Source: Vermamoeba vermiformis (lineage: Eukaryota). Taken from it: a DNA stretch of 64,000 nt. A program made the position numbers and the translations under genes. Shown here piece by piece: positions 1-64,000 of this stretch. Position 1 is the first letter of the stretch, and each line of letters starts with the position of its first letter. The DNA lies in assembly GCA_045837725.1 (NCBI GenBank), contig JBEWZL010000077.1, forward strand, positions 1-64,000. The letters are read 5' to 3'. The notes below the pieces were generated by a model. It saw nothing but the letters and a program-made list of their open reading frames with translations, was not told the DNA's origin and searched no databases.

Positions 1-2274
1 TTCAAGTTGACGCATCCGCTTTTGGAATCGGTGCCGTACTCTCACAATGTGATGAGAAAGGCAAAGACCACCCTGTTGCGTATTGGTCGCGCAAATTAAC
101 GGATAGTGAAGCTAAATCGTCGGCGACTGAACGGGAATGCCTCGCAGCTGTCGAAGCTATAAAACATTTTAGATCTTATTTATACGGTCAACCTTTTATA
201 ATAGAGACAGATCATAAATCTCTCGAATTTATGGACTCATTCAGAGCGATGAATGGCAAGGTTGCTCGTTGGAAAATGGCTCTCGCGGATTATAACTTCA
301 CAGTTCGCGCTAAACCTGGTCGTAAAAACGGTAATGCAGATTCTCTATCTAGACTTCCAAATTTCACAATTAATTCGATGACAATCGAATCTACTCTCGA
401 ATTTAATTTTGCGTCAAATCCAGATAAATTCAGACAAGAACAATTAAACGATCCTAAATTAAAATTGTATATAGATTACTTTGAACGCGATTGCGTACCA
501 CACGGATCGGGAATTGAATTTTTACGCAAATGCTCAGATCTATATATGCAAAACGGACTCTTATAAATTAAAATATCAAGATCATAACCCTTCACACGCG
601 AAATTATGTCTCGCTATTCCAGAGAAATTTACAAAATTAATTCTCGACGCGTGTCACGCTGATCCACTCTCAGCGCATCAAGGAATTCAACGTACTTACA
701 ATATTATTAGTACACGTTATTGGTGGCCTAAAATGTCCGCTGACGTGAAGGAATATTGTCGCTCGTGTGTTAAATGCATTGCACGAAAGACTCCTCGCGT
801 TTATAAAGCGGGTTATTTAAAACCAATTAAGGTCTCAAAACCGTGGGAATTAATCGGCATGGATATTCTTGGTCCGTTGCCGTTAACTAAACGTGGTTAT
901 AGATATATTATCGTATTTTGTGATTATTTAACGCGATTTCCAATCTGTGTCCCGTTAAAGGACATCAGTGCGAAATCAGTAGCTAAAGCGTATATAGATT
1001 ACGTTGTTATTGAGCATAATCCACCACTTAGAGTTCTTTCGGATCGCGGATCGAGTTTTAGAAACAAATTTCGCGAAGAGATCTTACAATATTTTAAAAC
1101 AAAACCGTCGTTTACAACAACTTATCATCCACAAACAGACGGACTTGTTGAACGATTTAATCATACACTCGCGACGCTTTTATCAGTATACGTTCACGAT
1201 AATCAAGGCGAGTGGGATATTTATTTAAAATACGTTCAAAACGCGTATCGCAAAGCAAAACACCCAACTATTGGTTATAGTCCTTTCTTTGCTTTATACG
1301 GGTATGATTCTGATCAAATTATAGACCGAATTTTTCCTGACGCGCCAGATTTAAACGAAAATTTAAACAATAACGAAGTATTAGACGAAATTATTAAAGG
1401 TAGAGATATTGCTCGTAAATATATTACCGAAAATATCGTTGCGACTCAAAATAGAATGAAAGAATACTATAATGAATATCGTCGCGACTCACAATTTAAA
1501 ATTGGCGACCGTGTTTGGTTTTATTGGCCGCCGCGAAGCGCGCCAGGTCAAATTCCTAAATTCTCTTTACCCTGGTCAGGTCCTTATACCGTTGTCGCGC
1601 GAAGATCTCCGCTCACATACGTAATTGCAAATCCAGATGGAGAAATTCTCGACCATTATATTAACGTTGATCGTTTGAAATTATGCACGTCAGTTACACC
1701 ACCTACCGAATTTATTTCCGTTCACAAAAATGACAATTTTGATTATACTAAAGTGTCATTTAACGCGAAGCAAATTGAAGACAAAACACCCGTTGATGAC
1801 ACTGAAATAGTAGATGATTTTACTGATAATATTAATACAAATAATACCAATACTAACATTAGCGATAATAATAATAATCAATCAAATATCGCTGCGAATC
1901 CAACTGTCAGTACGACAGATCAAACAGAGCCATACGTAGAGCCAGAATGGAAGACACCTAAATACGGTATGATTATATTCAATGCGTTAAAACGTTTGTA
2001 TTTAGCAAACCGCGATAATCCTTCCTCCCCTCTCGCGCCTATCAAGAAAGAATTAAAACAGACTCTCTCCGGCGATAACATTACGAGCAACAAGCGAATC
2101 AAACGCTTCAAAGAACAAATTAATGCAATTAAATCACATCAAGAGTTGCTCGAATTCTTACGCACTTGCCTTACCAACTTCGCCGAGATCTTCGAACAAG
2201 AAATTTCACGTGAAAAGAAGCGCAGTCATGAAGGCAAAGAGAAGCGCAATTCGAAGAGAAGAAGACTATTTTAG
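1..2274 (+). CDS. pol: Retrotransposon Pol polyprotein (partial), interrupted by a +1 frameshift at ~561-566
   Basis: Frame 3 runs from the window start to TAA at 564-566 (…NGLL*). Homology continues in frame 1 (YKLKYQ…) to TAG at 2274. Confidence 0.9.
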
Positions 2275-25749: not shown

Positions 25750-27399
25750 ATGCATTTCCTTCGTGCTGCTTTTGTTGGGCTCGTGATCTGCCATTTGGTG
25801 CTGGCTCTCGAAACAAGCCTTGTCAAGACACCCGTTGGAACTTTTGAAGGCTTCATTGATGGTGGTCTCAGTAGATATCTTGGTATTCGCTATGGTACTC
25901 CTCCTGTTGGTGATCTGCGTTTTATGCCTTCGTCCATCTACATTCCAACAAACACTTCAGCAGTATTTCCAGCTCAAAATTTCGGTCCTTCGTGCTGGCA
26001 ACAGCCTCCAAAACCAACGGGCATGTCTGAAGACTGTTTATTTTTGAACGTCTTTGTTCCGTCAGATGTGGACGCGCAACAACTCTTACCAGTCATGGTT
26101 TGGATCCACGGTGGCGGATTTGTTGTCGGCAGTAGCGCTGACTTTACGACCGATGTATTAGCACGCGCTGGTGGAGTCATAGTCGTCTCAATCAACTACC
26201 GTTTGGGACCCTTGGGCTTGCTCTCCTCGCAAGATCTGTACAACAAACTCGGCATATCTGGTGGAATCAATTCAGTAGCCGATCAAATAGTAGCCATAGA
26301 ATGGGTCTATCAGTACATTGAGTACTTTGGTGGAGATCCAGCTCGCATTACCGTCTTTGGCGAGAGTGCTGGAGGAATCTCCTCGGGCATACTGCTTATG
26401 ACTCCCGAGTTAAACGTGCCCGTACAATATTTTTCAGTCCAATCTGGGCCAGTCTTCGGCTTGACTCCGTTGGATCTCAAACAAGGTTTTGCGTTTTCGA
26501 ACGCCGCTTGTCTTCTTGCTGGCTATGGCAACTGCGACCTTGCTCAAATGCGCAAGGTGGAGCCTCAACAGCTCATCTCTGGATTGTTGCAAGCTGGTCT
26601 GAACGTCATGAAGCGACCTCCTAGTCCTTATGGCGCATGGTTATGGTCCGTTGATGGCCGAGTATTGCCTGAGCTCCCGCGAGATATGTTAGCAAAACTT
26701 GGATCTGAGTACGAAGTTAATGGTGAGGTGGTGATGACTGGCTTCACTTCAATGGACGGTGTCGTTTCTCCGGTTTTGAACAATGGCGTGCCACCTTTGC
26801 CAAAGACGGCGCAGGACTACCAAGCTTACATTCAAGCGTACTTTGGTGCGAATCAAAATCAAGTGATGTTGTTGAACACGACTTTCTACCCGCTCTCGGA
26901 GTACAACGGAGACGCTGCTCAAGCCTGGACTCAAATGAACGCTGATGCTTGTTGGGTATGCCCCACTATCGCATTGAATCGTGCGATTGTTGCACAGCAG
27001 GTCCCGCTTTACACGTACGAATTCTTCGGGGCCAAGGCGCCAGACTATCTTTCAGGACATGGTGGCGACGTCTATTTTCTCTTCAACATGACTTTTGCGG
27101 CGGAATATTTTAATGCTGGCTGGGACGATACCCTTAGCAAGCAAATGCGCGTAGCGTGGTCGAGGTATGCTACTAATGGCATGCCGGATCTTGGTACTGG
27201 CGTGGCCTGGAATTCCTTCAATAACAACGATGATGTAATGATGATTCAGGCCGGAAATATTCGCTTACAAAGTAACTTTGGCGCGCAGCATCATCATAAT
27301 GCGTGCGATAAGTTCTGGCTTGACACGAAACAAGTCACACCGGCGATGTTGCTGCAGATGTGTTGGGAGTATCCTTCGCCTGCTTGGCCGGGTCATTAA
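25750..27399 (+). CDS. Secreted type-B carboxylesterase (alpha/beta hydrolase), intronless
   Basis: 549-aa ORF with signal peptide, SEDCLFLNV, WIHGGGF, NYRLG, FGESAGG nucleophile and GHGGDV His motif. Confidence 0.95.
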   Translation: MHFLRAAFVGLVICHLVLALETSLVKTPVGTFEGFIDGGLSRYLGIRYGTPPVGDLRFMPSSIYIPTNTSAVFPAQNFGPSCWQQPPKPTGMSEDCLFLNVFVPSDVDAQQLLPVMVWIHGGGFVVGSSADFTTDVLARAGGVIVVSINYRLGPLGLLSSQDLYNKLGISGGINSVADQIVAIEWVYQYIEYFGGDPARITVFGESAGGISSGILLMTPELNVPVQYFSVQSGPVFGLTPLDLKQGFAFSNAACLLAGYGNCDLAQMRKVEPQQLISGLLQAGLNVMKRPPSPYGAWLWSVDGRVLPELPRDMLAKLGSEYEVNGEVVMTGFTSMDGVVSPVLNNGVPPLPKTAQDYQAYIQAYFGANQNQVMLLNTTFYPLSEYNGDAAQAWTQMNADACWVCPTIALNRAIVAQQVPLYTYEFFGAKAPDYLSGHGGDVYFLFNMTFAAEYFNAGWDDTLSKQMRVAWSRYATNGMPDLGTGVAWNSFNNNDDVMMIQAGNIRLQSNFGAQHHHNACDKFWLDTKQVTPAMLLQMCWEYPSPAWPGH

Positions 27400-28263: not shown

Positions 28264-30200
28264 TTAGAACGAGTTGGAGTACAAGTGCTGGGCCGCATCT
28301 CCGTAAGATCGAGCAGCGACGGGGCCAGAAGCAGCAGCACCTTCAACGTGGGCAGCTTGATGAGCGAGCTGTTGTTCTTGAGCGAGTTGTTCTTGCGGGA
28401 TGTTGTGCATAGTGAAGCCCTTCAAGATCTCGTCGACATCCGCCAAAGAGACGTTGCGAGTGTCAGCCAAAGCCTTAATCTTGGCAGTAGCGGCCTTGGT
28501 TTGCTCAGCGGAGAGACCCAAGTTGAGCTGTTCGACGCGAGCTTGAATAGCGTTCCATCCAGTGATTCTGCTAGCAAATTGGATCGTTCTTTCAACACCG
28601 AAATCTTCAGGGTTCAAGATCTCGTAGCACTCGGGGTTCTTAAGAATGGCCTTAATATGGACACCCGCTTTGTGCGTGAAGGCAGAGCTGCCCGTAATGT
28701 AGTTATTGAACGGAACTTGGACATTGACGAGGCCTGCAATGTAGTTCTCGACCTTGGAGATCATCTTCAGATCGTAGCGGCGCTTGATTTCTTCGCGGTT
28801 CAAAGAATACATGCGCGCCAAGAATCCTCCGAGCGGAGTAATTCCGTTACGTTCACCAATACCGAGAACGCAAGTGTCAATGTGGGTAACTCCGGATTCG
28901 ATGGCGTTCAAACTATGAAAAAAAAGGATCCCGTTAGTTCCCGCATTTGCAAGACACGTCATAGTATTAAATAGGTATAGTGGATGTTAAGTATATATGT
29001 TGCAAATAGATTTTGTACCTGTTGGCAATGGCGCATCCAGTGTCGTTGTGCGCATGGAATTCAATGTCACAGTTAACGGCACCACGAACTTGCGAAACTA
29101 ATTGAGCGACTTGCTTGGGGGTAGCGATGCCGACAGTATCAGCAATACCAACGCGGTTTACGCCCAATTTGTCGACTGCAGAGTAGATCTTGAGCACATC
29201 GGCCAAGTTGCTGCGGAATGAGTCTTCAGTGCTGAAGCGGACCTCAACGCCGTGTTTCAGGCAGTACTCGGTCACTTCACGTGCCTTTTCAACGATGTGT
29301 TCAATGCCTTTGCCGTGGGAGTTCTGTTGCAACAACTGACTGGTGCCGCAAAATACATTGACGCCATTAACACCAGATTCGACGGCCTTTTTAACGTCGT
29401 CCATATGGCATCTAACGTGCGTCAAAATCTTCGCCTTCAAGCCCAAGTTCGCAATTAATTCAATGTCTTTTTGGCTCTAAGAAAAAAAGTGGATTTAGTA
29501 AGTGGACCAGAATCCGGTCGTGTGAGTCAGAAATCGTTGATATGTGAATCGATTAAATCTCATCAAAATCTTCTATAGTATAGCGTCATTTAATGCCATA
29601 GAGAAGGCTTGTGGCTGATGATCGCATGAATCTATTGCGAGATTTTTTTGTTGGCCAAATCTGGCAAAAAAATATCTTCGTCACTGCCAGCAAAGCAATT
29701 ACTAACCTGTTTTGAGGCGGCTGCGGAAGTCAATTCGATGTATTCAACGCCCATATCATTCAACATGCGTGCAATTTCCATCTTTTGTTGAGTGTTGAAG
29801 TAAGCGGTCGAGAACTGGATGGATTGATTGTTAAAATTCGGGTTTGGATGAGAGCTTTGAAAGCATCGAATGCTATACTATGCATATATACTTACTTGCT
29901 CGCCCTCGCGCAAAGTGGAGTCGATAATTTTGAAGTTCATAGCATCGTACGTCTTCGTTCCTTCATTGTGTGCTCCGTTCAATTTTGAGCTCTTGATGGC
30001 GGGCTCAGTGAGGCCTCCGCTCAGAGAAGTGCTGCGAATACTATAGTTAATTAAATGATAAGAGCAAATGATTCAATTTCAGGTTTCACAACGGCTAGGA
30101 ATTACGAAGCGCCAGATGCGCGACAATTGTTCGGTACTTACCGTCTTCCCAGAGCGCGGGTAAAAATGTTTCTGCCTTGTGTGAAGATAGTAGAGAGCAT
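28264..30200 (-). CDS. LYS20: Homocitrate synthase (fungal type) with predicted mitochondrial transit peptide, 5 exons
   Basis: [84 protein letters not shown]-terminus [23 protein letters not shown] is Arg-rich with no acidic residues. Confidence 0.95.
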
Positions 30201-30657
30201 TTCGTGTTACAATAAGCTGGTCTGCGTGTGTGGGTGGATAGATGTAGAATTGTTGTAATAGTGATAAGAGTAGATTGTGGATATAGTGGTGCAACTATAA
30301 GTAATTGCTAGCTTTAATTATCAACGTCGTGTCCGACGTGGCCCTTTCCGACCGAGAAGAAATAGGCCATTGAAGGCTAAAAAAAGAGCGAGATGTGAAG
30401 GGGTATCAAAAAGAAAAAAAGAGGTAGGAGTGGTTCTACTCTCAATACAACAACGAAAAAGAACGGAGGGCCTGTCACCATAAAAGACTGCGCCAGATTT
30501 TTATTCTGGGTCAAATTTTATCGCAATAAAAGGTCTCAAAGTCTCTCATTGTTACGAAATTTCTTACGCCACTCGTTTTTGGCGCGCGATCAACTTCGTA
30601 TTTAAATACTCCTTGACGGCGATATACTACGCGCATCTGTTTATTCGGCAGCGAAAG
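30201..30657. promoter_or_regulatory. Putative bidirectional promoter between homocitrate synthase and homoaconitase
   Basis: 457 bp separate two divergent ATGs of consecutive pathway enzymes. Confidence 0.7.
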
Positions 30658-33643
30658 ATGTTTGGCGTAGCGTTAAGAGCGGATTTGGCGCGACGGTTGA
30701 CCGTTCGTGTCCACTCGAGAAAGCTTCACGTCGTTAATAAGAAGAGTAAAAATATGGTAAATTATAGATTAATCAAATATAATCATATTATTAGGTCTTG
30801 TGGCAATGAACGACTAATTTATTAATAAAATATCAGGTTGAAAAAATCGTGGCACGATATCTTGTGGACAAAAACGGGAATAAGGCCGAGAGCGTAAGTA
30901 CAATATTATAAAAATAACAAAAATGCTTAATTAATTATTTTAGGACGTTTCTGCTGGTGATTTTGTTGCCATCCAGCCAAAACACGTCATGACACACGAT
31001 AATACCGCAGCCGTTATCAAAGAAATTCACCTCACTAGGATCAAATGTAAGTGGCACACTATTAATACGATATTTTGGAGTGTTAGCTCGAAGCCCCAAC
31101 TAAGATCCGTCATTTCCATAAAAGGCAAAAATCAAAAACCCTCGCCAACCAGTATTTGCCCTAGATCACAATGTGCAAGACAAAGGCGTCGAAAATTTAG
31201 CACAATATAAGAAAATTCAACAATTCGCTAGCGAGGTAAGTGCATTTTAAATTGTTTATTTGTGAGATCCGATCCAGTATTCAATTCAAATTCTTATTTA
31301 GCATGGAATCGATTTCTATCCAGCTGGACGAGGCATTGGTCATCAAATTATGTGCGAAGAAGGTTACGCTTATCCCGGCAGTTTGGTTGTTGGCGCTGAT
31401 AGTCACTCGAACATGTACGGTGGATTGGGCTGTCTTGGTACTCCTGTAAGTCCATATGATGACATCGTTATATGACCATATTTTAATACATTGCTATGCC
31501 AGGTGGTCCGAACGGATGCTGCTGCAATTTGGGCTACTGGTCGCACCTGGTGGCGTGTGCCTCCTGTCGCAAAGGGTGGGTCAACATCGATTTTTTCGCA
31601 TCGAAAATTTTCTTTCTGACCGAATGAATTGCAGTCGAGTTGCGCGGAAGATTATTGCCTGGAGTGACAGGAAAGGATGTTATTATCACATTGTGCGGCT
31701 TATTTAACAAAGACGAAGTTTTGAACCACGCGATCGAGTTCACGGGTGAAGGTGTGGACACATTGAGCGTGGACGAACGATTGACCATTGCCAACATGAC
31801 CACTGAATGGGGTGCGTTGGCTGGTTTGTTCCCTATCACTAGCACTACTCTCAATTGGTTGCGAGCTCGTCGTGTAAGTATCAAATCCGGACGGTCAGGT
31901 CCACTTGACATTTTGACACTTTTAATTAATAAGCATACTGTTTGCTGCGAAAGTATAATAATGACGATTTGTACGTAGGATCTGCTTGCTAAACGTCTGC
32001 CGAAGATTCATCCTCGACACAACGATGTCGTGTTCAATCGATTGTTGGACGATTTGGAGTACTTCAAGGCTGATAGTGACGCATTTTACGCCAAAGAACT
32101 CGTATTAGACTTGGTACGGTAACAGTTACCTTAAGCGTTTGCACGAAACTGATTTGACACGTGTCATTCATAGAGCTCTGTCAGACCACACGTGTCAGGT
32201 CCTAACGACGTCAAAGTTATGCAAAGTGTTGAAGATGTTGAGAAAAAGAACGTTAAAATTCACAAGGCGTACATTGTGTCTTGCGTCAACAGTCGTGTTC
32301 AAGACTTGGCTGCTGCCGCCAAAGTTGTCAAAGGTAGTTAGCAGTCTATACATAGACATTAGGTGTCGGCTTAAAGTCATTGATATGTTATTACTTTGTA
32401 TGAATGTTTAGTAACTTTGTGTAACAGGCAAGAAAATCGCTCCCGGCGTCGAATTTTACATCGCTGCCGCTTCAAGCGAAGGTATTTATTAGCTTTTCCC
32501 TTAACAATAAGTATATTAATATCGCACTATAGTCGAGGCTGAGAGCTCTGAGCGAGGTGACTGGCAAGCGTTGTTGGATGCCGGTGCGAAACCTTTGCCT
32601 GCTGGATGTGGACCTTGCATCGGTTTAGGAACTGGTTTATTGAAGTATGTTGCATATATTCTCGATAATTAATCGTGATGTTAACGATTTATAGGGACGG
32701 AGAAGTTGGTATTTCAGCTACAAACAGAAACTTTAAGGGTCGTATGGGTAGTCGAGATGCCAAGGCTTTCTTAGCCAGTCCTGAAGTCGTAGCAGCATCT
32801 GCTTTGAAGGGTTCTATTGCTGCACCAGATTATCATCGCGCATTCTATTCAACTAAAGTCGGAGGTAATTTCAGCTCAGATGCGCATCCGTTACAAAAGT
32901 CTTACTGTTGTTGCAGAGGCTAGCCATAGCATCCAAGTTAATGCACCTCCTAAGAGCGCAGAGACTAAGAAGCAAGATATCGTTCAAGGATTCCCTAAAC
33001 AGATCTCTGGCGAGATTTTGTTCTGCCACCAAGACAACCTGAATACTGACGGAATTTACGCTGGAAAATGGACTTATGTGAATGATATGACGCCTGAAAA
33101 ACAAGCACAGGTTGTTATGGAGAACTACGACCCTAACTTTGTGAATATGGCCAAGAAAGGAGACATTTTAGTCGGCGGTTACAATTTTGGTACTGGAAGC
33201 TCTCGTGAACAAGCTGCGACCTCACTTAAATACAAAGGTACAAATTATTATTGTTTTTGTGAAATACAATGTTAATTTCTTTTGAAAGGCATTGCTCTGG
33301 TGTTTGCCGGATCTTTCAGCGAAACTTACGCACGTAACGCGTTCAACAACGGGTACATTTGTATTGAGGTGCCTGAACTCGTTGAAGATTTGAAGAAAAA
33401 GTACGTAGAATCTTGGTTATAAAATCTTGTGACTTGAATTAGATTCTAACTTTCGTTTTTCTTAGGTACGGATCTCAAGCCCCTACTGTTAAGACAGGAT
33501 TAACCGCAAATGTTGATTTTGAGCGTGCAGTACTTACAGTTGACGGCAAGAGCTACGCAATGCCTGCATTAGGTGAGGCTATTCAAGAGTTAGTCGTTGT
33601 GGGTGGTCTAGAACCTTGGATCACGCAACAAATCAACCAATAA
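30658..33643 (+). CDS. LYS4: Homoaconitase (homoaconitate hydratase), mitochondrial, multi-exon; one +1 indel at ~31019-31021
   Basis: [100 protein letters not shown]. Confidence 0.93.
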
Positions 33644-58264: not shown

Positions 58265-61200
58265 TTAATTATTATTGTTAGTATTATTGTTATTGTTATC
58301 CAAGTTGAGGGCACTGCCAGCACGACTTAGGAGTTGTTGACTGGAAGCAAGACTCGATGAACGAGCGAGCAACGGTCGATTGGCATTGTTGTTGTTCGCT
58401 GCTTTGATGGCACATCAGTAATTGAAAACAAAGACACGAAAAGTCGATTTGACTCACTTCTTCCTGATGACTTGTTGCGTGTGTACAGCTCTTCTTCGAC
58501 ACTGTCACGCACAACAAAGCGAACAAGATGCACTTTCTGATCTTGTCCTTGTCGATGTGCACGACCCAGTGCTTGCATCTCGTACGCTCGTGCTTCTTCA
58601 ATGCTGCCTTGCATAGGGTCAACGAGCACAACGTAGTTGGCTTCGATCAAATTCGTTCCTGCTGCTGAGTTTCCCAACGACATCAACAGCACTTTGACGT
58701 TGTCTTGTTTGAACTGTGCGAGCTTCTTCGTCTTCTGAATGACATTGCTGATTGATCGTTCATTAGGACACATGAAAGCGAAACAATATGACATTACGTA
58801 CCCTTCCAAGTGCACAGCAGTGATTCCAGCCTTGTGCAGTACTCGATGGATCTTTGTCAAATAATCCGAGAACTACGATTCAGAGCTTAATTAATTGATG
58901 CAAAGTTATCAAGTAGTACGGTGCCTTTTACCTTTGAGAACAAGATAAATCTGTTGTTCTCGTCTTCTTCAAAGCTGTCATTGAGCCAGTTGATCAATCG
59001 TGCCATTTTGCTGCCGTAGTTGTTGACCAAAGAGAGCTCTTGAACCACTGTCGGTTCAGTGATGTTTTTGCCGTCCAACACCTTTTCAACGTTTGTCCAT
59101 TTGGTGATCCTGGCATTGAGCACTCGGATAGTAGCCTCGTTCGTGTTGATGTTTTCCTTGACCCACCAATTTTTCTCCATATTGTTAATGCGAAGTTGCC
59201 AGTTAGCGTTTTGTTTTACCAAATTCTCTCGCTGTACTTTTGCATCCTCGATATTTTTGGAGGCGACACCATCAAGACTCAAGTTGTACGGAATTACTCC
59301 GGAGCACAATTCCAGGTTCGAGTCCGGCGTTCCCTCTTTTAAAGTAAAAACTTGTTAGCCCAACATTGCCGTTAACTTATTGTTCTGCGCATTCAAATTC
59401 ATTCAATGATTTTTCGGCGACTTGTTGCGCCTCTCCCGACCTCCCTAGGCACGCATCTATATCAGCCCCATATGGAAGAATGCCATTGGGGAGCTCCAGG
59501 TATGTTATTAGGAAAGTCCCCGTGATATGGGGCGCGGAGAGGGAATTTCGGTTGTTAGTGCGAAAAAATTGCGTTGTATGAATTTGAATGCGCAGAACAA
59601 TAACGAAGAATCTTACCCGAATGCAACAATCGTTCAATAGGATGGAAGTCGACATAAACCAAGTCTTCTTCGTAGTCAGGTACTTTGTATTCTTCACCAA
59701 CACTCTCTTTGATGTTTCTCCATATCAAGTTGTTGTAGATAAGGTCATTTTCGACCCACCTGTAAAAGCAAAGTGAATATCAAGTCAATCATTGTATTCA
59801 ATGTTGCAGCACTCACGCTTCGTATTTTTCACCGAGTGAGTCTTCGTGTTCAGTTGAATCGTCCCAAATCTCCAAGAACCGCTTTGCTGCGTCGAATAAA
59901 TCCCTAGTGATCGCGTTAGAAGATACATATAGGGCAGACTATTGGTATTGACTTACAGCGAAGGGAAAGGTGTTGCACTCACGTACCAAGCGTATGACTT
60001 TGGGATATAAGTAATGCAATCTACCCGAAAGAACGAAGTTAATTACAATGAAGCGCTCATAAGTGACACTTACCTGTCAAAAACGGATCATTGAACACTT
60101 CGTGGGCTTCATCAACAATAACACGCATCCAATTAAAGTTATCGAGGACAGGACCAATCGTTTGGAATTTCATCTCACTGTTTTTGACCTCTTCCAAGTA
60201 TTCTTTGACGAGTCGTGAGCGTTTTGGCAGCATCGGTCGGTTCACTGCAACTTTCTTTTTGCCGCAGCCAAGCGTGAAGTAGTTTTTGTTCTTGAACATT
60301 GCTGACGTCACAATAACGAAGGCTAAACTGGAAGGGTCAGTCCTGATTGGTTAAAAATACTCAATCTCGCTTACCAGCTTCGATGAAGTCTTGATAAGTG
60401 GTGTTGTTGAAGTCATCGATCGTGGCGTAAATAATGACTTTAAGGTCCGTGTACTTGATGATCTCATCTGCCCATTGTTTGGCGAGGTGATTCGGGCACA
60501 CAACTGCAGAACAGTTAGACATGTACGATGCGATAACCTGCTACGAACCTAGTGTTGCTCTTGTGTTGATTAATCCGCTCTCATTGTATTCTGGCAGCTT
60601 CTCCCGAGCATTTCCAAGTGTCAACAACGACAAACCAATCACTGTCAAGCACAGTTATTACCATAAAAGGAAATGTTGTGCTATATGAGAATGACAGAGT
60701 TAATAATACAATGACTTACGTTCAAGAGTCTTGCCAAGACCGACTGCATCTGCAAGCACTCCTCCTTTGGCTTTGATCCCGCCGTAAAAATCTTCCATCT
60801 TACTCGCTGGAACGAGTTTCATCGAGTGCAGATCCAACATGACACTTTTCTCCGAGTGCTTCCACGGAACCAAGTCACAGTACTTCAGCTCTACCAGCAT
60901 TATATTGGTTAACTAAACTACACAATCATTTCTTGCAGTATTTGTTTACCTTTATCCGAGTCTTTTTCGATGGCATTCATCCAATTTATCGCGTCAAGTT
61001 GATAGCGATGAAATTTGAATCCGTCTTTCAACCCTTTCGGCTCTTCTACTTGCGCTGGAATCTAATATCGAAGGTGAGAGTGAATGTTTGAATATACAAC
61101 AGAGTTGGACTTACGAAGGGATGCATCGACTTTTTGATTTCTAAAAACTTTTTGTTCTCCTTTTCGAGGAAACCCAAAATCTGTGTTTCTTGGAATTTCA

Positions 61201-62386: not shown

Positions 62387-64000
62387 TTAATCTGCATCGT
62401 TGTTATCCAAGTTGAAGGCACTGCCGGCACGAGTGAGAAGTTGTTGACTGGAAGCAAGACTCGATGAACGAGCGAGCAACGGTCGATTGGCATTGTTGTT
62501 GTTGTTTGCTGCTGATGATGACACGTCAGTAATTGAAAACAAAGACACGAAAAGTCGATTTTGACTCACTTCTGCCAGATGACTTGTTGCGTGTGTACAG
62601 CTCTTCTTCGACACTGTCACGCACAACAAAGCGAACAAGATGCACTTTCTGATCTTGTCCTTGTCGATGCGCACGACCCAGTGCTTGCATCTCGTACGCT
62701 CGTGCTTCTTCAATGCTGCCTTGCATCGGATCCAGCAACACGACGTAGTTGGCTTCGATCAAATTCGTTCCCGATGCTGCGTCACTCAAGCACAACAACA
62801 AGACTTTGACATTCTCTTCTTTGAATTGTTTCAATTTCTTCGTCTTTTGCGTCACATTTCTATCACACAATCGCGTTAAATTAAATAGTACAGTAAAGAG
62901 TCAATTACCCTTCTAGTCTAACGGAGTTGATGTTTGATTGTTGAAGAATAGTCTCCACCGTTTCTAAATAACTAGCGAACTATTATGGGAATAATTATTA
63001 GTGACTCGTTCATGAGTGAATTTTTCACTGAACCGAAGAAAGCTTTCCTTTGAAAACAAAATGAATCGATTGTCATCGTCCTCTTTGATGCAATCATTGA
63101 GCCATTCGATAATTTTGCTCATTTTGCTGCCGTGTTTGTTCATCAGCGTCAATCGTGCATGTTCATCGTTCTCTGAAATATTTTTGCCTTGAAGAACGAA
63201 CGGCACTTTAGGCCACTCATTGCGCAGCACTTCAGTTTCCTTGATCTCTTTTTGATAGCTCTTAATGGCCGCTTTCTTGACTTTGATAATCTTGTTATTT
63301 CGCGTAATGTTTCTTTTTTTCTGCTCGGGTGCCTGTAAATAACACATTAGTCCACCTTGTCCTATAAAATACTGCCTAGTGCAATGTATTCACTTACCAT
63401 ATTAGCGTAGAAAGGGTCGGTATCATAATCAGCGATTGATTTTTCGACGCGTTTAATCTCATCCTCACAATATGCAATCGAGGACTCCATTCGTTGGATC
63501 AAGCTCTATCAAAATATTAGCTCTTGTATATATCAATAAATGAACAAGTTGCGACGTACATTCAGTTCTTCAATACGGCGAGGTGGAATTTCATCGACAG
63601 AAGGATACGAAAATATTCCACAACACAGTTTAATATTAGCTTCGGCCGTTGATTCTGGGAAAAAATTAGATAGTAACAATAAGGGATTAACTATTTTTCT
63701 GCTTACGCAAACTTTAATGCAATAAAGTTTCAATGGGACTGAAGTCGACGTATACCACTTCTTCGACGTAATCAGGCACGGTATACTCCGAAGTGATACT
63801 TTCTTTCGTGTTTCGCCAAATAAGGTTATTGAAGATCAAATCATTTTCAATCCACCTAGCAAAGGATTAGCCTCGTCAATAATTGAAAAACTCACATCTC
63901 GTATTGTTCACCGATAGTGTTCTCAGGCACCAAATCATTCGCCCAAATTCCTAAAAATCTCTTTGCAGCCGAGTAGAGCTCCCTAAATTAGTCGTTATTA
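62387..64000 (-). CDS. SNF2-family helicase, tandem paralog (copy 2, 5' part outside window)
   Basis: HGSKMSKII, NRFILFSK, SGTNLIEANYVVLLDP, QALGRAHRQGQ. 3' region nearly identical to copy 1. Confidence 0.88.

What the first reader, a model, noticed from the sequence alone, without database searches (positions are those of the whole stretch)
29340..29430. Homocitrate synthase carries Asn at the lysine-feedback Asp position
Seen: [29 protein letters not shown], with the second Asn encoded at 29357-29359. Known (from memory): S. pombe Lys4 reads [29 protein letters not shown], its second Asp (D123) binds inhibitory lysine, and D123N desensitises the enzyme. The E74 and E222 equivalents (YIELTS, DIEFH) are retained here. 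Inference: a naturally feedback-resistant enzyme, which would need pathway control at another level.
Basis: partly seen in the sequence, partly recalled or inferred. Interest (0 to 1): 0.7.

Follow-up and report, generated by a model that had tools for sequence, protein, structure and literature searches.

The report
Amoeba lysine pathway: shared leader peptide
An amoeba's first lysine-making enzyme lacks the residue that lets lysine switch it off in yeast, and two of its lysine-pathway genes instead carry the same tiny upstream peptide, which may let the ribosome itself sense lysine.

Summary
The Asn is real and sits at the S. pombe D123 position, but it is not this organism's private mutation. 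The gene is a single-copy, five-exon homocitrate synthase of a Vermamoeba-type amoeba, with a mitochondrial-type presequence, head to head with homoaconitase. Asn marks a whole branch (Vermamoeba, Echinamoeba, Capsaspora, Corallochytrium, Euglypha, some cyanobacteria) lying outside the Asp branch that holds the Thermus and fungal enzymes. Asn goes with a bulky residue two positions on and, in protists, with a presequence. Weak lysine feedback is likely but unmeasured; the D123N result is recalled, not read.

The stronger result lies 1 kb upstream. The spliced mRNA leader holds an 18-codon upstream ORF (30370-30314). The same peptide signature recurs in a uORF before the LYS1-LYS2 fusion gene, at only these two places in 43 Mb for two tight patterns, and at the N-terminus of a 60%-identical amoebal homocitrate synthase. 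Best reading: a nascent-peptide attenuator, working like the fungal arginine attenuator peptide, replaces enzyme feedback. Translation, stalling and the effector are inferred; a small RNA hairpin is the main rival.

The parts
29357..29359 (-). Asn141 codon (AAT), equivalent of S. pombe Asp123
29351..29353 (-). Phe143 codon, two residues on; Val/Leu in 182 of 182 Asp-type enzymes, Tyr/Phe/Met in 38 of 39 Asn-type
30314..30370 (-). uORF of 18 codons plus TAA in the homocitrate synthase leader; out of frame with the main ORF; T at -3; signature M-x-Y-F-F ... H-V-G-[H/N]-D-V-D
   Evidence: inside the spliced X4 contig, which reaches 30402
30142..30200 (-). HCS exon 1 (main ATG at 30200, G at -3); Arg-rich, acid-free presequence of mitochondrial type
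   Evidence: targeting inferred from composition only
29896..30031 (-). HCS exon 2 (rest of leader segment; Arg61/Glu62 = Sp Arg43/Glu44)
29707..29814 (-). HCS exon 3 (Glu92 = Sp Glu74)
29019..29476 (-). HCS exon 4 (His121, Asn141, Arg181, Ser183, Glu185, Thr215, Glu240, His242, His244)
28264..28912 (-). HCS exon 5 to the stop; C-terminal subdomains and a low-complexity tail; no regulatory domain found. Whole CDS 1410 nt, 469 aa
30658..33643 (+). Homoaconitase (LYS4-like) gene, divergent from HCS, start codons 458 bp apart; presequence-like N-terminus; end position read from the sequence, full splice model not built
   Evidence: TIGR00139 best hit for three pieces; three GT..AG joints

Best explanation
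The gene encodes the amoeba's only homocitrate synthase, the first enzyme of a complete fungal-type alpha-aminoadipate lysine pathway. SHOWN: gene structure, Asn141, intact catalytic residues, presence of the other pathway genes, a uORF in the spliced leader, and the same peptide signature before LYS1-LYS2. INFERRED: (1) the enzyme is imported into mitochondria with homoaconitase and homoisocitrate dehydrogenase, while the last steps (LYS1-LYS2 fusion, LYS9) lack presequences and run outside. (2) Without the Asp, and with Phe two residues on, it binds lysine poorly, so end-product inhibition is weak (about 0.7). (3) Control is instead at the cytosolic ribosome: scanning ribosomes mostly skip the weak uATG; those that translate the uORF stall near its acidic end when lysine (or a pathway intermediate) is high and block access to the main ATG, as the arginine attenuator peptide does for fungal CPA1/arg-2. 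The peptide sits on the entry gene of the mitochondrial half and on the gene holding the entry enzyme (aminoadipate reductase) of the second half. I put a peptide-dependent regulatory uORF at about 0.7 and lysine or an intermediate as its effector at about 0.6 of that.
For: Enzyme: single copy; passes TIGR02146 (461.5 vs cut-off 413.55); 11 catalytic, substrate and metal positions are unchanged in all 39 Asn-type close homologues wherever covered. Position +2 covaries almost perfectly. No barrel-strand acid replaces the Asp in the window's protein. Presequence-like N-terminus in 28 of 34 Asn-type protist proteins versus 1 of 31 Asp-type eukaryote-group proteins with an extension of 25 aa or more. 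Asn occurs where lysine feedback would make little sense: 15 of 15 cyanobacterial loci (no lysine operon beside it in 5 of 5 loci read; cyanobacteria use the DAP route, established knowledge) and second copies in Colletotrichum. Pathway: LYS2, LYS1, LYS9-like, LYS12-like; no DapF. uORF: inside a spliced contig; HCS uORF vs LYS1-LYS2 uORF scores 45, best of 2,699 other ATG-ORFs in 128 kb is 28, shuffles 7 of 200,000; the second uORF surfaced in a scan with the P0005 N-terminus (4th-equal of 2,058 ORFs) before any pattern was written. Two tight patterns each hit exactly these 2 places in 43.3 Mb, controls 0. Spacing between the two conserved blocks changes by 9 and 3 nt, keeping frame. Of 12 block codons, HCS vs LYS1-LYS2: 6 identical, 4 synonymous, 2 changed; divergent strain L024: 2 of 2 changes synonymous, while flanks show 10 mismatches and 5 gaps in 167 nt. 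P0005 N-terminus is the best match of 413 N-termini (36; next 31, then 24; shuffle 1 of 100,000). Both uATGs have T at -3; 5 of 5 main ATGs have a purine. AAP works by leaky scanning and stalling and is position-independent (PMC11550727, passages).
Against: No kinetics, no structure model, no ribosome data. The D123N effect is recalled only. Glu74 and Glu222 equivalents remain, so some lysine binding may persist. Laboratory desensitising residues occur naturally in Asp-type enzymes (Phe at the ScS385 position in 27 of 182, Lys at ScR276 in 18 of 182), so mutant results need not transfer. Presequence and +2 correlations are mostly one clade, not independent events; the 4 Asn-type fungal proteins have no presequence. 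Only 4 DNA leaders were available, two of them near-identical. The tight patterns were built from the two uORFs, so their two hits are by construction; only the absence of further hits is informative. P0156 matches the window uORF weakly (22; shuffle 3,765 of 100,000). L025 keeps 7 of 8 same-residue codons identical, more than expected for peptide-only constraint, and a 6-pair hairpin with one two-sided change can be drawn. No such uORF before LYS4, LYS12 or LYS9. The LYS1-LYS2 uORF was not shown to be in a transcript.
Confidence: 0.48

Rival explanations
1. The enzyme is feedback-weak, but the shared leader element acts as RNA (a small hairpin bound by a protein) or as a DNA site for a lysine-regulon transcription factor; the peptide likeness is a by-product.
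For: A 6-pair hairpin over the V-G-x-D codons is predicted for the four leaders, with one two-sided change in L025. A second stem at the uATG forms in the three HCS leaders. L025 has few silent changes. The element is also about 320 bp upstream of the divergent LYS4 start.
Against: The LYS1-LYS2 leader breaks 2 of the 6 pairs while keeping the residues, and folds no better than shuffles (z 0.45). Covariation term is unfavourable (+0.38). In-frame ATG, frame-keeping indels and a stop right after the motif need no explanation under a peptide model but are coincidences here. No Rfam match.
Confidence: 0.17
2. The Asn-type enzyme is still inhibited by lysine at physiological levels, through the retained Glu74/Glu222 equivalents and the Asn amide; the uORF is an extra layer or unrelated to lysine level.
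For: Glu92 and Glu240 kept; E222 kept in 38 of 39 Asn-type proteins. Two Asn-type enzymes sit in lysine-operon-like clusters in bacteria (L077, L080; neighbours named from their ORF starts, by recall). Ki differs tenfold between yeast paralogues that are over 95% identical (PMC8276798), so one residue does not fix sensitivity. PMC9860122 groups all HCS, Sulfolobus included, as competitively inhibited (passage).
Against: Asp is invariant in the branch that holds the tested competitive enzymes. The +2 residue becomes bulky with Asn, also in two of the three reversals. Glu222 is next to a metal-ligand His and may be kept for structure (inference).
Confidence: 0.2
3. The uORF peptide is functional but senses something else (general amino-acid supply, 2-oxoglutarate, 2-aminoadipate, arginine, polyamines) or stalls constitutively to keep expression low in a cell that gets most lysine from prey.
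For: No effector data. Constitutive and polyamine-dependent arrest peptides exist (PMC7038982, passages). The genome also has a lysine-degrading LKR/SDH-like gene.
Against: The signature is confined to two lysine genes in the genome; looser patterns gave only background (43 vs 26 control, 19 vs 18 control), and 9 of the 43 that were followed up were coding exons or chance.
Confidence: 0.12
4. The enzyme has changed substrate (for example to a Re-citrate synthase), so lysine feedback is irrelevant.
For: Asn-type enzymes in cyanobacteria are outside lysine operons.
Against: His103, Arg163, Ser165, Thr197 equivalents kept; passes the HCS equivalog cut-off; head to head with homoaconitase; only HCS in a genome with the rest of the pathway and no DapF.
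Confidence: 0.03

Closest known systems
S. pombe Lys4 (PDB 3IVS/3MI3) and T. thermophilus HCS (2ZTJ/3A9I), lysine-competitive homocitrate synthases
   Same: Same family (TIGR02146), E 1.5e-150 to 3IVS over 372 residues; catalytic, metal and 2-oxoglutarate residues kept; Glu74 and Glu222 kept.
   Different: Asn for Asp123, Phe for Val125, Ser for Arg288; mitochondrial-type presequence (yeast Lys20 is mainly nuclear, PMC4330366 passages); belongs to a separate branch.
Arginine attenuator peptide (N. crassa arg-2, S. cerevisiae CPA1 uORF)
   Same: Short uORF in the leader of a pathway-entry enzyme; peptide-level conservation; poor start context; acidic residues in the conserved core; may occur fused to the main ORF.
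   Different: 18-20 codons against 24; different pathway and presumed effector; present on two unrelated genes of one pathway; no sequence kinship claimed (not compared); stalling not shown.
Arabidopsis CGS1 nascent-peptide arrest (AdoMet)
   Same: End-product control of a first committed amino-acid enzyme by arrest within the main ORF, which is the arrangement seen in P0005 and P0156.
   Different: Different sequence, effector and lineage; here the same peptide is a uORF in one lineage and an N-terminus in another.
Bacterial Lys-codon leader-peptide attenuators before hcs (Thermus type)
   Same: Leader ORF before homocitrate synthase.
   Different: Those read tRNA-Lys charging through Lys codons and a terminator; these uORFs have 1 and 0 Lys codons and lie in eukaryotic mRNAs.
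S. acidocaldarius HCS (PDB 6KTQ)
   Same: Also lacks the Asp (Ala) and has Phe at +2.
   Different: Recalled, not checked: its lysine sensitivity depends on an appended RAM domain. The window's protein has no such domain.

Membership tests
Homocitrate synthase, LysS fungal/Thermus type (TIGR02146) | Score above the curated cut-off | tested here: met
   P0001, the 98%-identical spliced form, 461.5 bits vs 413.55
Homocitrate synthase, LysS fungal/Thermus type (TIGR02146) | Arg43, Glu44, His103, Arg163, Ser165, Glu167, Thr197, His224, His226 equivalents | tested here: met
   roles of several of these residues are recalled
Homocitrate synthase, LysS fungal/Thermus type (TIGR02146) | Makes homocitrate from 2-oxoglutarate and acetyl-CoA | not testable with these tools
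   inferred from residues and the homoaconitase neighbour
Lysine-competitive HCS (S. pombe / Thermus type) | Asp at the 123 position | tested here: not met
   Asn141
Lysine-competitive HCS (S. pombe / Thermus type) | Glu74 and Glu222 | tested here: met
   Glu92, Glu240
Lysine-competitive HCS (S. pombe / Thermus type) | Micromolar Ki for lysine | not testable with these tools
   needs kinetics
HCS with appended regulatory domain (Sulfolobus type) | C-terminal RAM/ACT-like domain | tested here: not met
   Pfam finds only PF00682 and PF22617
Conserved-peptide uORF, AAP-like | ATG-to-stop ORF inside the mature mRNA leader | tested here: met
   HCS: spliced X4 contig covers 30142-30402, L024 begins 54 nt before the uATG; not tested for LYS1-LYS2
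Conserved-peptide uORF, AAP-like | Peptide conserved, with synonymous changes and frame-keeping indels | tested here: met
   only 4 DNA sequences; L025 shows few silent changes
Conserved-peptide uORF, AAP-like | Weak start context allowing leaky scanning | tested here: met
   pyrimidine at -3 in 2 of 2 uATGs, purine in 5 of 5 main ATGs; importance of -3 in this organism assumed
Conserved-peptide uORF, AAP-like | Effector-dependent ribosome stalling that needs the peptide sequence | not testable with these tools
   needs reporters or toeprinting
Arginine attenuator peptide family proper | Sequence homology to AAP | not tested
   no AAP sequence was fetched; the 20-aa uORF hits no Pfam model; the 18-aa one is below that tool's minimum length
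Bacterial Lys-codon leader attenuator | Run of Lys codons in the leader ORF | tested here: not met
   1 and 0 Lys codons
Known structured RNA family | Rfam match in the leader | tested here: not met
   0 matches at E <= 5 in 30100-30800

The most novel reading that the evidence does not exclude
Echinamoebid amoebae regulate lysine synthesis with a lysine-sensing nascent peptide, a 'lysine attenuator peptide', that has been placed on two unrelated pathway genes and can act as a uORF or as the N-terminus of the enzyme. It stands in for active-site feedback, which is a later invention of the Thermus/Chloroflexota/fungal branch and which mitochondrial protist homocitrate synthases never had.
Probability: 0.4. 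Interest if true: 0.87.

Novelty: new variant of a known kind. Interest (0 to 1): 0.72.

Why it matters
Metabolite-sensing arrest peptides in eukaryotes are few (arginine, AdoMet, polyamines in the papers read here), and my searches found none for lysine or for homocitrate synthase. An 18-20-codon candidate with a two-gene consensus is directly testable and could serve as a lysine sensor. The enzyme survey recasts textbook HCS feedback as a property of one branch and points to a pool of possibly feedback-free enzymes, of use for lysine production in yeast, where desensitised HCS is the stated goal (PMC8276798).

Tried and rejected
Sequencing error: rejected. Second, Asp-type HCS elsewhere in the genome: none; the only other hit is a carboxylase-like TIM barrel at E 3.9e-4. 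DAP route: no DapF (one marker only, absence not proven). Glu at the ScSer385 position (the engineered S385E) and Ser at ScArg276 as extra support: given no weight, the positions vary freely among Asp-type enzymes. More uORF copies: loose patterns gave background; 9 of 43 matches followed up, none a lysine-gene leader. More in-frame N-terminal peptides: none new among 120 short homologues. ESM Atlas on P0005 residues 1-24: no usable hit, uninformative. No structure model could be obtained, so pocket geometry is argued from sequence only. Primary papers on D123N and Thermus Asp92 not held. Earlier findings: nothing near this locus or on this uORF. Lack of LYS4 cover in X4 and thin cover in X15 is not interpreted. 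No supplements were read.

Full report
1. Observation. The peptide is on the minus strand, and 29357-29359 is AAT. It aligns gap-free to S. pombe HCS chain position 128. An offset of 5 gives D123 and reproduces Arg43 and Ala324 as named in PMC8276798 (I read parts 1-3 of 5 of that paper, and it does not mention D123). That D123 binds lysine and that D123N desensitises the enzyme is recalled: Bulfer 2010 and Okada 2010 are not held, and three searches gave no held paper on it. The codon is stable: 15 of 15 listed members of the 30-member cluster have Asn, and two contigs that cover it differ from the window only elsewhere (contigs, not raw reads).

2. The gene. Five exons (30200-30142, 30031-29896, 29814-29707, 29476-29019, 28912-28264). 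All four introns are skipped by one contig of run X4 (RNA status guessed by the tool); X8 shows three of them; X15 (RNA on record) shows three exactly and the fourth with a 3-letter variant. The CDS is 1,410 nt, 469 aa, with Asn at 141. It is single copy. Its 90% cluster contains the EukProt protein of Vermamoeba vermiformis; a close cluster contains Echinamoeba exundans. It passes TIGR02146 and has no extra domain. Homoaconitase starts 458 bp away on the other strand. Elsewhere in G000: LYS2 (two pieces, 771.5 and 334.3 bits), LYS1 directly upstream and joined to it by an in-frame GT..AG intron as read from the DNA, a LYS9-like gene and an LKR/SDH-like gene (names from recalled resemblance plus PF16653/PF05222), a LYS12-like gene (best PDB hit homoisocitrate dehydrogenase), and no DapF. 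HCS, LYS4 and LYS12 begin with Arg/Lys-rich, acid-poor segments; LYS1-LYS2 and LYS9 do not. Targeting is inferred from composition, with no predictor.

3. Asn is a branch trait. Among the best 120 hits, 117 carried the motif: 96 Asp, 21 Asn. Among 221 near-full-length close homologues from two searches (the second seeded with Asn-type proteins, so not a frequency estimate) the site is binary, 182 Asp and 39 Asn, with catalytic residues intact in both (307 of 425 proteins passed the coverage filter, cluster members other than P0152 left out). Of 80 metagenome loci, 61 Asp, 8 Asn, 1 Gln, 1 mis-hit, 9 without motif. Named Asn carriers: Capsaspora, Corallochytrium (from its gene prefix), Euglypha, Echinamoeba, Vermamoeba, Circinella, second copies in Colletotrichum, and 15 of 15 cyanobacterial loci. 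In a tree of 85 chosen sequences (377 columns, LG+G4, fast search, SH-aLRT, rooted on an archaeal sequence), Thermaceae, Chloroflexota, fungi and a Cavostelium-type group form an Asp clade (86.5) with three returns to Asn. The window's enzyme lies outside it, in a protist group (83; 0.97 in the FastTree of 114) nested with cyanobacteria (100). Deeper bacterial relatives mostly have Asn, and one has Asp. So Asn is probably the older state, but deep nodes are weak and no topology test was run.

4. Is the enzyme feedback-weak? For: the residue two positions on is Val/Leu in 182 of 182 Asp-type and Tyr/Phe/Met in 38 of 39 Asn-type proteins; on a beta-strand both face the same side (inference). No compensating acid appears in the window's protein. 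Presequence-like ends occur in 28 of 34 Asn-type protist proteins against 1 of 31 Asp-type (36 and 53 proteins were given, the rest had extensions under 25 aa or no clear start; the one exception, P0096, has a second Met at the usual start). Yeast Lys20 is mainly nuclear (PMC4330366, passages). Against: these traits are largely one clade, so the Fisher P overstates the case; Glu74 and Glu222 remain; laboratory desensitising residues occur naturally in Asp-type enzymes; two bacterial Asn-type genes lie in lysine-operon-like clusters. I estimate 0.7 for much weaker inhibition.

5. Control at another level. The leader holds one uORF within the transcribed region, 30370-30314, 18 codons plus TAA, inside the spliced X4 contig. 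A strain with 93% protein identity keeps the peptide, with 2 of 2 changes synonymous, a rate like the CDS (30 of 341 codons), while the flanks show 10 mismatches and 5 gaps in 167 nt. The N-terminus of P0005, a homocitrate synthase about 60% identical, matches the uORF best of 413 N-termini (36; next 31, then 24; 1 of 100,000 shuffles), but is in frame with the enzyme. P0156 resembles P0005 at the same place yet matches the window uORF only weakly (22; 3,765 of 100,000). Scanning 2,058 ATG-ORFs of the window and seven loci with the P0005 peptide put the window uORF first and brought up, 4th-equal, a 20-codon uORF ending 6 nt before the LYS1-LYS2 start. The two uORFs score 45 against each other; the best of 2,699 other ATG-ORFs in 128 kb scores 28; 7 of 200,000 shuffles reach 45. 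Invariant in four sequences: Met1, Tyr3, Phe5 and V-G-x-D-x-D. Two tight patterns each find only these two places in 43.3 Mb, controls 0; since they were built from the two uORFs, this shows only that no third close copy exists. Looser patterns give background. LYS4, LYS12 and LYS9 have no such uORF. Indels between the blocks are multiples of three, the uATGs have T at -3 and the five main ATGs a purine, and there is no Lys-codon run.

6. Mechanism and rivals. The anatomy fits the arginine attenuator: leaky scanning past a weak uATG, effector-dependent stalling at the uORF stop, function independent of position in a polypeptide (PMC11550727, passages), and a critical Asp in a 24-residue peptide (PMC7038982, passages). 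A ribosome in the cytosol would see the pool where lysine is finished, which a matrix enzyme may not (inference). The main rival is an RNA or DNA element: a 6-pair hairpin with one two-sided change can be drawn, and L025 has few silent changes; but the LYS1-LYS2 leader breaks 2 of 6 pairs while keeping the residues, and Rfam has no match. Stalling and the effector are untested.

7. What is known. Searches for a uORF with homocitrate synthase (one unrelated review, listing only), for lysine-responsive uORFs (listings only, none of the rows shown holds the lysine terms), for amoebozoan HCS and for a LYS1-LYS2 fusion found nothing on these points in the held library, which lacks most subscription journals. 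LYS20 and LYS4 are known from choanoflagellates (PMC4339202, passages). Other papers were seen as passages only and added little: PMC10464499, PMC4302243, PMC7078309, PMC12961565, PMC8779187, PMC8954384, PMC9860122. No supplements were read.

8. Verdict. The substitution alone is a widespread, apparently unremarked branch trait (interest about 0.4). The shared leader peptide on two lysine genes is the part worth following: new variant of a known kind, overall interest 0.72.

Noticed in passing
G000:C300 about 393000-399420, minus strand (L017, L003, L004): Saccharopine dehydrogenase (LYS1) appears fused in frame to the N-terminus of aminoadipate reductase (LYS2) through a short GT..AG intron; read from DNA only, no transcript seen. 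No paper found on such a fusion.
   Followed up: partly
P0065, P0074, P0078, P0088, P0107 (Colletotrichum): A second, Asn-type homocitrate synthase beside the normal Asp-type copy; in two records it is annotated as joined to an ABC transporter, which suggests a secondary-metabolite cluster (precursor supply or self-protection). Context not fetched.
   Followed up: no
P0245 (Circinella) and P0044: Independent return to Asn inside Mucorales; P0044 has also lost the Glu222 equivalent.
   Followed up: no
L108-L122, L071, L073, L076, L078: Rivularia/Calothrix-type cyanobacteria carry a stand-alone LysS-type homocitrate synthase with Asn and no lysine operon nearby; its role (nitrogenase cofactor or other) is open.
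   Followed up: partly
G000:C6 about 217580-221600 (L018): The LKR/SDH-like lysine-degrading gene shows no presequence at its apparent start, suggesting it may be cytosolic.
   Followed up: no
P0096 and relatives: Amoebozoa hold two kinds of HCS: Asn-type with presequence (Echinamoeba, Vermamoeba) and Asp-type grouping next to fungi and Chloroflexota (Cavostelium), hinting at separate origins.
   Followed up: partly
window 3-2271 (+): Retroelement pol remnant with integrase domains at the contig start.
   Followed up: no
window 58299-59354 and 62390-63389 (-): Two similar helicase-C-terminal gene pieces about 4 kb apart, a local duplication.
   Followed up: no
window 25750-27399 (+): Intronless 549-aa carboxylesterase with a signal-peptide-like start in an otherwise intron-rich region.
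   Followed up: no
L017, about 100 nt upstream of the LYS1-LYS2 uATG: Two CACGTG boxes close together, possible transcription-factor sites.
   Followed up: no
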